Assembly (NCBI GenBank): GCA_043807785.1
Contig: JAZDFO010000068.1
Coordinates: forward strand, 1-44,344
Source: Candidatus Micrarchaeota archaeon
GTDB lineage: Archaea > Micrarchaeota > Micrarchaeia > Norongarragalinales > SBBD01
Direction: 5' to 3'
DNA length: 44,344 nucleotides
Shown: piece after piece, positions 9,821 to 10,806 of the stretch
Layout: every line of letters starts with the position of its first letter
Numbering within the stretch: position 1 is the stretch's first letter
Made by a program: the position numbers and the translations under genes
The notes under the pieces: model-generated
Told to the model about the DNA's origin: nothing
What the model saw: the letters and a program-made list of their open reading frames with translations, nothing else
The model's database searches: none

Positions 9821-10414
9821 TTACGCCTTGGCCTCCTGCGCCTTTGCTGCAACAGGCTGTTGTGCCGCCTTCTCGGCAGGCTTTTCTACCGCCTTCTCTT
9901 GCGCCTTTTCGGCCGGCTTGTCCTCCTTCTTTTCTGCCGGCTTGTCCTTCTTGGGCTTGGCTGCCTTGTCTGCAGCAGCCTTGTCGGCCTTCTTCTTCTC
10001 CTTGGCTTCCTTGACGGTCGCCGGCCGGTCCTCGGTCTTGAACTCGTACTTTGCGGCCATCTTGGAAGCGATGTCCTTGATGGTCTGCTCGTTTGCGGCG
10101 TTGCCTGCCTTGGTCACGGCAATCGCGCTCGAGCCCACGTTGAGCCCTGCTGCCTTGCCCAGGCTGACCTTGCTGGAAACGTAAACATACGGGACCTTCT
10201 TTTCAGAGCACAGCTGGGGGAGGTGCATGACGATTTCGGGCGGGTCGACGTCTTCTGCGATGACCACCAGGGATGCTTCGCCGCGCTCGACTGCCTTGGT
10301 GCACTCGTTGGTGCCCTTGCGAACGCCGTTGGCGGCGCGCGCGGCCTCGATTGCCTCGAGGGCCTTCTTCTGCACGTCTGCAGGAGTCTCAAACTTGACG
10401 TGTATGGATGCCAT
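9821..10414 (-). CDS. rpl7ae: 50S ribosomal protein L7Ae with a ~75-aa Lys/Ala/Glu/Pro-rich C-terminal extension
   Basis: Core VRKGTNECTKAVERGEASLVVIAEDVDPPEIVMHLPQLCSEKKVPYVYVSSKVSLGKAAG. The tail contains KPAEK-type repeats. First gene of the conserved L7Ae-S28e-L24e order. Confidence 0.92.
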   Translation of the reverse strand: MASIHVKFETPADVQKKALEAIEAARAANGVRKGTNECTKAVERGEASLVVIAEDVDPPEIVMHLPQLCSEKKVPYVYVSSKVSLGKAAGLNVGSSAIAVTKAGNAANEQTIKDIASKMAAKYEFKTEDRPATVKEAKEKKKADKAAADKAAKPKKDKPAEKKEDKPAEKAQEKAVEKPAEKAAQQPVAAKAQEAKA

Positions 10415-10418
10415 GATA

Positions 10419-10443
10419 CAATCTCACCTTCGTTCATCGATTG
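10419..10443 (-). promoter_or_regulatory. Kink-turn (K-loop) in the rpl7ae 5' UTR enclosing the Shine-Dalgarno sequence
   Basis: Minus-strand RNA: CAAUC-GAU-GA-A-CGAAGG-U-GA-GAUUG. It has a 5-bp C-stem (CAAUC/GAUUG, with C-G at the -1 position), a 3-nt bulge (GAU), and tandem G.A/A.G pairs. The SD GAAGGUGA lies inside the element, and the AUG is 4 nt after it. Confidence 0.55.
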
Positions 10444-10539
10444 CGTGAACAAATAAGCGGAACATTCTTGTGCGAGCCAAGCTTTAAATACGTTTGGAGG
10501 GCAGTTCTTTAAATTGGCCCTTGACTTTGACGGAAATTT

Positions 10540-10806
10540 GTGGTTTTGATGGTTCTCTCGGATATCACGGAAATTCTTGGTATAGCGTCCCTTAACTTGA
10601 TTCCCAACCCCAAAAATCCACACCTCTGCAGATATTGCATTCCCGGCATACTCGCGGCTTTATTTGCCTTAATGTTTTTAGCTGGATTGTTTTCAAGCGG
10701 TCCCTCCAGTTTGACGGGAATATTCTTCATTCTCATGCTTGTGATGCTCGTGCTTACCGCTGCCGTTAGGAACAAGCACATAACGAAGCCGGTTAATCGC
10801 CGCTAG
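10540..10806 (+). CDS. Possible small two-TM membrane protein
   Basis: 88-aa ORF with two hydrophobic segments (GILAALFALMFLAGLF, GIFFILMLVMLVLTAAV). No homology recognised. Confidence 0.3.
   Translation: MVLMVLSDITEILGIASLNLIPNPKNPHLCRYCIPGILAALFALMFLAGLFSSGPSSLTGIFFILMLVMLVLTAAVRNKHITKPVNRR

What the first reader, a model, noticed from the sequence alone, without database searches (positions are those of the whole stretch)
10419..10443. Textbook kink-turn wrapping the Shine-Dalgarno sequence of the L7Ae mRNA (autoregulation candidate)
Immediately upstream of the rpl7ae AUG the RNA reads 5'-CAAUC GAU GA A CGAAGG U GA GAUUG-3'.
- CAAUC/GAUUG form a 5-bp canonical stem with C-G at the -1 position.
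- GAU is the 3-nt bulge.
- The GA on the bulged strand and the GA directly preceding the 3' stem strand give the tandem sheared G.A/A.G pairs.

The SD GAAGGUGA is the loop and non-canonical arm of this element, and the AUG follows 4 nt after the stem. L7Ae is the archetypal K-turn binding protein, and archaeal L7Ae has been reported to bind K-turns in its own 5' UTR. Here, binding would directly sequester the SD.
Basis: partly seen in the sequence, partly recalled or inferred. Interest (0 to 1): 0.6.

Follow-up and report, generated by a model that had tools for sequence, protein, structure and literature searches.

The report
L7Ae self-regulating kink-turn mRNA leader
The short RNA stretch in front of the ribosomal protein L7Ae gene of this small-genome archaeon (Micrarchaeota) folds into the kink that L7Ae itself binds, which is a new example of a known self-regulation switch and not a new mechanism.

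Summary
On the minus strand, 10443..10419 reads CAAUC-GAU-GA-ACGAAGGU-GA-GAUUG, and the AUG of a true rpl7ae gene follows 4 nt later (TIGR03677, 154 bits). Hairpins of this type occur at 0.047 per kb per strand in this genome. The chance of one in the 40 nt before a given start is therefore about 0.002.

The element is strongly conserved:
- All 11 genomes of the same family keep it.
- Across 147 Micrarchaeota genomes in 21 families, 115 have a kink-turn hairpin within 60 nt of the rpl7ae start.
- The same test scores 12% in shuffled sequences, 3% on the reverse complement, and 8-19% before other genes of this genome that have a Shine-Dalgarno (SD) sequence.
- The C helix covaries: CAAUC/GAUUG, CUUUC/GAAAG, ACUG/CGGU and CC/GG (covariation score 0.66 against 0.28 in shuffles, 0 of 500 shuffles as high).
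- A TATA box that is invariant in the family lies 39-52 nt upstream, so the element falls inside the 5' UTR.

This matches the L7Ae translational feedback loop of Daume et al. 2017 and Huang et al. 2019. Binding and repression were not tested here. This scan has already noted the same kind of leader in at least 7 other genomes. Verdict: new member of a known kind, low interest.

The parts
10482..10489 (-). Archaeal TATA box (AUUUAAAG within uauuuaaag). The predicted transcription start is about 10463..10458.
   Evidence: TATWTAAA is invariant in all 11 family leaders and lies 39-52 nt upstream of the C helix (alignment A1). The start position is inferred from the usual archaeal TATA-to-start distance and is not mapped.
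10439..10444 (-). C helix, bulged (b) strand: G-CAAUC (-6b..-1b)
   Evidence: CAAUC is invariant in family f1. It covaries with the n strand across families.
10436..10438 (-). Three-nucleotide bulge GAU (L1-L3)
   Evidence: Across the phylum the bulge is GAU in 58, AAU in 36 and UAU in 14 of 115 leaders. All six published l7ae UTR kink-turns also have GAU (PMC6298567).
10434..10435 (-). G1b A2b of the tandem sheared G.A pairs
   Evidence: Invariant columns in alignments A1 and A2.
10426..10433 (-). NC arm and loop ACGAAGGU: 3b:3n = A:U, 4b:4n = C:G, loop GAAG
   Evidence: Its length varies from 7 to 11 nt in the family while GG(G)U is kept.
10424..10429 (-). Shine-Dalgarno AGGUGA. Its last two bases are G2n and A1n.
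   Evidence: Read from the sequence. GGUGA is invariant in the family. There are 9 nt between it and the AUG.
10418..10423 (-). C helix, non-bulged (n) strand: GAUUG-U (-1n..-6n)
9821..10414 (-). rpl7ae (L7Ae/eL8), 197 aa, with a Lys/Ala/Glu-rich C-terminal tail of about 75 aa
   Evidence: PF01248 at 4.4e-29. TIGR03677 at 154 bits. Best PDB matches are archaeal eL8/L7Ae chains at 1e-38. In the one alignment shown (9e6q) the NE.TKAVERG and IAEDVDPPE.V stretches are near-identical.
10444..10453 (-). Candidate competing 5' arm UUUGUUCACG, which can pair with CG.UGAACGAA (10439..10429). Hypothesis only.
   Evidence: MFE structures. Ensemble test against shuffled upstream sequence gives p = 0.04. 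The duplex-energy test was null.

Best explanation
The element is the L7Ae-binding kink-turn (effectively a K-loop hairpin) in the 5' UTR of the rpl7ae-rps28e-rpl24e transcript of a Micrarchaeota genome.

Proposed mechanism. When free L7Ae exceeds its rRNA and sRNA binding sites, it binds the GAU bulge and the tandem G.A pairs. This stabilises the 6-bp C helix (GCAAUC/GAUUGU). The protein then sits directly on the SD, whose bases are the loop, the NC n strand and G2n/A1n. The spacer up to 3 nt before the AUG is locked into the helix. The 30S subunit cannot bind and L7Ae synthesis falls, giving negative feedback.

Shown here: the sequence signature, its position in the leader, conservation and covariation, and the identity of the gene.

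Inferred from published homologous systems: L7Ae binding, the conformational effect, and repression of translation.
For: - Anatomy is exactly as described, upstream of a true rpl7ae.
- The chance expectation is about 0.002 for this position.
- All 11 genomes of the family keep CAAUC-RAU-GA-(7-11 nt ending GG(G)U)-GA-GAUUG, ending 0-3 nt before the AUG, while the flanks diverge.
- Across the phylum, 115 of 147 genomes (all 21 families sampled) have a kink-turn hairpin in the last 60 nt. The figure is 11.8% in dinucleotide shuffles and 5 of 147 on the reverse complement.
- For other SD-bearing genes of this genome the figures are 19% (C helix of 2 bp or more) and 7.9% (3 bp or more), against 78% and 73% for rpl7ae.
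- At least 10 of the 32 misses are rare-variant or artefact cases: 2n = A in 6, and my own wrong start call in 4.
- C helix covariation: all 6 pairs change on both sides, 85% of cells are paired, and the score is 0.662 against 0.282 in shuffles (0 of 500 as high) and 0.05-0.25 with slid partners.
- In family f12 the NC helices are hairpins of different sequence.
- A TATA box invariant in the family places the element inside the transcript.
- 3b:3n = A:U, the same as in the A. fulgidus UTR kink-turn. [quoted passage not shown]
- The mechanism is demonstrated in S. acidocaldarius and for six other archaeal UTRs (PMC5539422) and structurally in A. fulgidus (PMC6298567).
- The genome encodes fibrillarin and Nop5, so L7Ae has competing box C/D clients to be balanced against.
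Against: - There is no experimental evidence for this organism.
- A weaker TATA-like UUAUUU at 10455..10450 could in principle start transcription inside the element.
- -1b:-1n = C:G favours protein-independent folding. None of the six published UTR kink-turns has it.
- The 6-8 bp C helix of this family may form without L7Ae. It is the MFE structure in one relative. The simple picture of an RNA that is unstructured until bound may therefore not apply.
- Within the family the helix never varies. Covariation comes only from comparisons between families, and the -1 and -2 pairs of alignment A2 were selected by my detector.
Confidence: 0.85

Rival explanations
1. The leader is a two-state switch. 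A competing 5' hairpin, UUUGUUCACG (10453..10444) with CG.UGAACGAA (10439..10429), holds G1b/A2b and the C-helix b strand in Watson-Crick pairs. L7Ae must displace it to form the kink-turn. This would be an elaboration of the known mechanism, with a threshold or ON-state structure.
For: - The MFE of the window leader and of its congener is this hairpin, with P(unpaired G1b) = 0.00.
- Upstream-to-b-strand pairing exceeds that of shuffled upstream sequence: p = 0.04, 0.005, 0.005, 0.000 and 0.055 in 5 of 9 family leaders.
- Partner sequences differ between genera: UUGUUC/GAACGA, GAUUUUC/GAAAAUC, UGAUUGUG/UACAAUCA.
- Across the phylum 16.5% of leaders reach p <= 0.05, against 5% expected.
- An earlier scan note proposed the same for a Nanohalobium leader.
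Against: - Whole-leader MFE is ordinary (z = -0.03).
- The duplex-energy test is null (mean z = -0.1).
- 4 of 9 family leaders show no signal.
- The pairings are not positionally homologous, so they are not true covariation.
- In the window's MFE the SD is also paired (P unpaired = 0.21), so the hairpin is not clearly an ON state.
- The result depends on an unmapped transcription start.
Confidence: 0.2
2. The kink-turn is real and binds L7Ae (or another L7Ae/L30e-family protein), but its role is not translational feedback. Alternatives include mRNA stabilisation, 5' UTR processing into a small RNA, or chaperoning.
For: Nothing here tests function. L7Ae binds many non-regulatory kink-turns, and RIP-seq found several mRNA targets of unknown role (PMC5539422).
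Against: - The element always overlaps the SD and the start region, ending 0-12 nt before the AUG in nearly all of the 115 leaders. This is what occlusion requires and other roles do not.
- Repression is shown for seven other archaeal l7ae UTRs.
- At 25 nt the element has no room for a guide sequence.
Confidence: 0.07
3. The match is a chance resemblance. The conservation reflects only the SD and start-codon context.
For: GAGGUG or GGUGA supplies a GA plus helix bases for free. 19% of other SD-bearing starts give a motif with a C helix of 2 bp or more.
Against: - 73% against 7.9% at 3 bp or more.
- An invariant b strand RAUGA sits 7-40 nt upstream of the SD.
- Compensatory changes occur in all six helix pairs.
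- Chance of about 0.002 for the 5-bp form.
Confidence: 0.03

Closest known systems
Archaeoglobus fulgidus l7ae 5'-UTR kink-turn (Huang, Ashraf & Lilley 2019, PMC6298567; PDB 6HCT)
   Same: It is a standard kink-turn hairpin in the rpl7ae leader, with a GAU bulge, tandem G.A pairs and 3b:3n = A:U. The SD lies within the element. It acts as a translational OFF switch when L7Ae binds.
   Different: - A. fulgidus has -1b:-1n = C:A and a weak C helix that contains the SD (Fig. 6 legend).
- Here -1b:-1n = C:G and the C helix is 6 bp, lying between the SD and the AUG.
- Here the SD forms the loop, the NC n strand and the G2n/A1n bases, so L7Ae would sit on it directly.
- The NC arm is only 2 bp plus a 4-nt loop, which makes it K-loop-like.
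Sulfolobus acidocaldarius l7ae (saci_1520) leader kink-turn (Daume et al. 2017, PMC5539422)
   Same: L7Ae binds a kink-turn in its own 5' UTR next to the SD and represses translation. That paper reports the arrangement as conserved in most of 121 archaea.
   Different: - Opposite polarity: in Sulfolobales the Kt-n strand comes first, then the SD, then Kt-b.
- Here the b strand comes first and the loop is on the NC side.
- No Micrarchaeota name was found in that paper's supplements. Its alignment lists sequences by locus tag, so inclusion cannot be ruled out.
- That paper reports that Nanoarchaeum equitans lacks an SD upstream of l7ae.
Common Micrarchaeota form found here: CC-RAU-GA-(3-39 nt)-GA-GGUG
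   Same: Same gene, same b-strand motif, same polarity.
   Different: - In most families the SD GAGGUG itself supplies G2n, A1n and the C helix.
- The window's family (f1, and also f3, f22, f23) uses a register shifted 4-5 nt downstream: GA is the end of GGUGA, and a longer dedicated C helix abuts the AUG.
Box C/D (C'/D') K-turn/K-loop of archaeal sRNAs; yeast L30e pre-mRNA kink-turn
   Same: GAUGA ... UGA resembles box C (RUGAUGA) and box D (CUGA). The protein family that binds is the same. L30e is the eukaryotic precedent for autoregulation.
   Different: There are no guide regions and no second C'/D' pair. The whole element is 25 nt and lies inside an mRNA leader, so it is not an sRNA. No Rfam family matches: nothing at gathering score in the window, and only a chance hit at E = 4.8.

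Membership tests
L7Ae autoregulatory leader kink-turn (Daume 2017 / Huang 2019) | Lies in the 5' UTR of the rpl7ae mRNA, downstream of the promoter and upstream of the start codon | tested here: inconclusive
   It lies 4 nt upstream of the AUG of a TIGR03677 gene. A family-invariant TATA box 39-52 nt upstream predicts a start near 10460.
L7Ae autoregulatory leader kink-turn (Daume 2017 / Huang 2019) | Standard kink-turn sequence signature: C helix, 3-nt bulge, tandem G.A/A.G pairs | tested here: met
   CAAUC/GAUUG, GAU, GA...GA. The GA columns are invariant in 40 of 40 diverse cores.
L7Ae autoregulatory leader kink-turn (Daume 2017 / Huang 2019) | The SD or ribosome-binding site is within or abuts the element, so that folding occludes it | tested here: met
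   AGGUGA (10429..10424) forms the loop, the NC n strand and G2n/A1n. The helix ends 3-4 nt from the AUG.
L7Ae autoregulatory leader kink-turn (Daume 2017 / Huang 2019) | Conserved in relatives, with base-pair covariation | tested here: met
   11 of 11 in the family and 115 of 147 in the phylum, against 12% in shuffles. Covariation is 0.662 against 0.282, with 0 of 500 shuffles as high.
L7Ae autoregulatory leader kink-turn (Daume 2017 / Huang 2019) | The RNA does not fold into the kink without protein (3b:3n and -1b:-1n rules) | tested here: inconclusive
   3b:3n = A:U predicts no ion-induced folding. But -1b:-1n = C:G favours folding and the C helix is 6 bp.
L7Ae autoregulatory leader kink-turn (Daume 2017 / Huang 2019) | Specific binding by the cognate L7Ae | not testable with these tools
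   Indirect only. The NE.TKAVERG and IAEDVDPPE.V stretches are near-identical to the best-matching solved archaeal eL8 (9e6q). That these stretches contact the kink-turn rests on my own knowledge, not on a tool result.
L7Ae autoregulatory leader kink-turn (Daume 2017 / Huang 2019) | L7Ae-dependent repression of translation | not testable with these tools
   Needs a reporter or a toeprint assay.
Box C/D sRNA | C and D boxes plus C'/D' boxes, with 10-12 nt guide regions, in an RNA of about 50-70 nt | tested here: not met
   There is only one C-like/D-like pair, 8 nt apart, with no guide. No Rfam match was found.

The most novel reading that the evidence does not exclude
In this Micrarchaeota family the leader may be a true two-state protein-sensing switch. 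A 5' hairpin that pairs with G1b/A2b and the C-helix b strand would compete with the kink-turn and set a threshold for L7Ae. Once bound, L7Ae would sit directly on the SD rather than burying it in a helix. This differs from the published model, in which the RNA is unstructured until bound.
Probability: 0.2. Interest if true: 0.45.

Novelty: new member of a known kind. Interest (0 to 1): 0.2.

Why it matters
It extends the L7Ae feedback loop to Micrarchaeota, a lineage of reduced-genome DPANN archaea. No indexed paper holds both 'L7Ae' and 'Micrarchaeota' or 'DPANN'. The one DPANN genome discussed in the founding paper (N. equitans) was reported to lack an SD upstream of l7ae.

Near-universal retention in genomes of 0.6-1.6 Mb suggests the loop is hard to lose.

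The survey also provides about 120 natural kink-turn and K-loop variants. They include register shifts, -1b:-1n = G:C or A:U, and 2n = A. These could serve studies of kink-turn sequence rules or synthetic L7Ae switches. The finding does not open a new question.

Tried and rejected
- Rfam at gathering score on the whole window gave no hits. At E <= 10 on 10350..10560 it gave only a chance hit to STnc420 (E = 4.8). No curated family matched this leader.
- RNAfold of the leader does not give the kink-turn hairpin and has z = -0.03. This is uninformative because G.A pairs are not modelled.
- A duplex-energy test for an anti-kink-turn partner upstream was null. The ensemble test was only partly positive. 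The competing hairpin is therefore kept as a hypothesis.
- I looked for kink-turns before fibrillarin and Nop5 in this genome, as reported for other archaea, and saw none.
- The two other SD-bearing genes of this genome with a C helix of 5 bp or more encode what look, from the sequence alone, like an ATPase and a low-molecular-weight phosphatase/arsenate reductase (no family search was run). I judged both to be chance.
- A box C/D sRNA reading was rejected: there is no guide and the element is too short.
- I did not build a covariance model. Direct motif tallies with three kinds of control, plus count of structure pairs, answered the question.

Full report
**Observation.** The element is on the minus strand. 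Reading 10443..10419 as RNA gives 5'-CAAUC GAU GA ACGAAGGU GA GAUUG-3', followed by UAUC and the AUG at 10414..10412. The ORF 10414..9821 is L7Ae: Pfam PF01248 at 4.4e-29, and NCBIfam equivalog TIGR03677 at 154 bits against a cut-off of 134.6. The best PDB matches are archaeal L7Ae/eL8 chains at about 1e-38. In the one alignment shown (9e6q) the stretches NE.TKAVERG and IAEDVDPPE.V are near-identical. S28e, L24e and a TRAM-domain gene follow on the same strand.

The C helix is 5 bp with C:G at -1 and extends to 6 bp through G10444.U10418. The bulge is GAU. The tandem GA/GA pairs are in place. The SD AGGUGA (10429..10424) supplies the loop, the NC n strand and G2n/A1n. The AUG lies 4 nt after the stem.

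**Chance.** I counted hairpins with a 5-bp Watson-Crick C helix, a 3-nt bulge, GA, a 3-14 nt spacer and GA. There are 110 on both strands of the 1.18-Mb genome and 3 in the window. That is 0.047 per kb per strand, or about 0.002 for the 40 nt before one named gene. RNAfold does not recover the hairpin and the leader's MFE is ordinary (z = -0.03). This is expected, because sheared G.A pairs are not in the energy model.

**Organism.** The genome is a MAG of 1.18 Mb in 147 contigs, 69% complete. The closest named records holding a similar L7Ae are Candidatus Micrarchaeota MAGs. The genome therefore belongs to a DPANN lineage.

**Conservation within the family.** All 11 genomes of the same family (4 genera) keep CAAUC-RAU-GA-(7-11 nt ending GG(G)U)-GA-GAUUG, ending 0-3 nt before the AUG. 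The C helix is 6-8 bp, and the sequence further upstream diverges. TATWTAAA is invariant in all 11 and lies 39-52 nt upstream of the C helix. From the usual archaeal TATA-to-start spacing, the start is predicted near 10463..10458. That gives a UTR of about 44-49 nt which contains the whole element. This is an inference.

**Conservation across the phylum.** I took the rpl7ae upstream region from 147 Micrarchaeota genomes in 21 families.
- A kink-turn hairpin ending within 20 nt of the start is present in 115 of 147. The detector required a C helix of at least 2 bp with a C:G or G:C closing pair, a 3-nt bulge, GA, a 2-40 nt spacer and GA.
- The same test scores 11.8% in dinucleotide shuffles and 5 of 147 on the reverse complement. 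With a helix of 3 bp or more it is 107 of 147 against 5.2%.
- The SD itself donates GA and GG, so I also used other SD-bearing starts of this genome as a stricter control. They score 19% at 2 bp or more, 7.9% at 3 bp or more and 1.4% at 5 bp or more.
- Of the 32 misses, 6 have an A at 2n (CC-GAU-GA...CC-AA-GGU). This is a rare variant that L7Ae is known to bind in Kt-23 (PMC3985660 abstract). Four are my own wrong start calls. Several more have A:U or U:G at the -1 pair.

The common form is CC-RAU-GA-(3-39 nt)-GA-GGUG, in which the SD GAGGUG is the n strand. The window's family, together with f3, f22 and f23, uses a register shifted 4-5 nt downstream. There the GA is the end of GGUGA, and a dedicated C helix fills the space up to the AUG.

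**Covariation.** The C helix reads differently in different families:
- CAAUC/GAUUG in f1
- CUUUC/GAAAG in f7
- ACUG/CGGU in f13, extended up to 10 bp
- GCACC/GGUGU in f14
- CC/GG elsewhere

I aligned 40 non-identical cores from 11 families (A2) and counted pairs. All six helix pairs change on both sides and 85% of cells are paired. The covariation score is 0.662, against 0.282 in shuffles (0 of 500 as high) and 0.05-0.25 with slid partners. One caveat applies: pairs -1 and -2 were required by my detector, so only -3 to -6 are free of selection. The 3b:3n position is paired in only 50% of cells, as is usual for kink-turns. In f12 the NC arm is a longer hairpin whose sequence differs between genomes.

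**Mechanism.** This is the arrangement described by Daume et al. 2017. They showed by RIP-seq that L7Ae binds its own 5' UTR, showed repression by reporter for S. acidocaldarius and six other archaeal UTRs, and reported SD-bearing leaders with putative Kt strands in most of 121 archaea. Huang, Ashraf and Lilley 2019 showed that the A. fulgidus UTR kink-turn folds only when L7Ae binds. They solved the complex and showed by in-line probing that the ribosome-binding site becomes protected.

The window's element shares the GAU bulge and 3b:3n = A:U with A. fulgidus. It differs in three ways. First, -1b:-1n is C:G, which none of the six published UTR kink-turns has. Second, the C helix is longer. 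Third, the SD sits in the loop, NC arm and G.A part rather than in the C helix. L7Ae would therefore cover the SD directly as well as lock the spacer into a helix.

The genome encodes fibrillarin and Nop5, so box C/D RNPs probably compete for L7Ae. That is the situation in which feedback makes sense. I saw no kink-turn before those two genes.

**Possible extra layer.** In the window and its congener the MFE is a hairpin, UUUGUUCACG (10453..10444) with CG.UGAACGAA (10439..10429). It ties up G1b/A2b and the b strand. Other genera of the family have different upstream partners for the same b-strand bases.
- An ensemble test against shuffled upstream sequence reaches p <= 0.055 in 5 of 9 family leaders.
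- Across the phylum, 16.5% of leaders reach p <= 0.05.
- A duplex-energy test is null.
- The pairings are not positionally homologous.
- In the window the SD is also paired in that structure.

I keep this as a hypothesis at about 0.2.

**What is known, and novelty.** No Rfam family matches. No indexed paper holds both 'L7Ae' and 'Micrarchaeota' or 'DPANN'. No Micrarchaeota name was found in the supplements of Daume et al., although the alignment lists sequences by locus tag, so inclusion cannot be ruled out. The mechanism itself has been published since 2017 as widespread in archaea. This scan has already noted it in at least 7 other genomes, two of them followed up with the same verdict. I therefore rate it a new member of a known kind, with low interest.

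Noticed in passing
window 9821..10050 (-); L002-L011: L7Ae here is 197 aa, with a Lys/Ala/Glu/Pro-rich C-terminal tail of about 75 aa. Relatives in the family have open frames of 178-242 aa, so the tail is a family trait. Whether the tail affects kink-turn binding is unknown.
   Followed up: partly
L138, L175, L181, L188, L190, L198 (family f13), upstream of rpl7ae: Six leaders have CC-GAU-GA-(9-12 nt)-CC-AA-GGU, with A instead of G at position 2n. This is a rare non-standard kink-turn type, known from Kt-23 of Thelohania solenopsae (PMC3985660).
   Followed up: partly
L115 (f3), L027 (f8), L208/L210 (f12), L151/L155 (f21), L016 (f10), upstream of rpl7ae: Several leaders carry two b-strand motifs, either in tandem (...RAUGA-NCC-RAUGA...GAGGUG) or nested as two kink-turns (L115: AAUC-AAU-GA-CC-GAU-GA-GAC-GA-GGU-GA-GAUU-AUG). 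They may be double kink-turns or alternative registers. Earlier scan notes describe double kink-turn leaders in other phyla.
   Followed up: no
L183, L209, L213 (f13): These leaders have an A:U pair at -1b:-1n (AUCUA-RAU-GA-...-GA-UAGGU). The folding properties of that closing pair have not been studied, according to PMC6298567.
   Followed up: no
window 10505..10518 and ORF 10540..10806 (+): A second, palindromic TTTAAA box lies about 22 nt before the GTG of a divergent 88-aa ORF with no Pfam match. It is probably the promoter of a leaderless divergent transcript, and not part of the rpl7ae leader.
   Followed up: no
G000 contigs C55:1354-1998 (+) and C65:4554-5315 (-): Fibrillarin and Nop5 lie on different contigs rather than as the usual adjacent pair. 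Fibrillarin has a TATA-like tttatatt about 27 nt before its ATG, so it is probably leaderless. No kink-turn was seen before either gene.
   Followed up: partly
genus g4 leaders L003-L007, L009, L010 (A1 columns 31-42): A block GCUGAUUUUC at the predicted transcription start is conserved across the seven g4 genomes while its flanks diverge. It contains GAUU, a copy of the C-helix n strand, and UUUUC, which is complementary to GAAAA of the b strand.
   Followed up: partly
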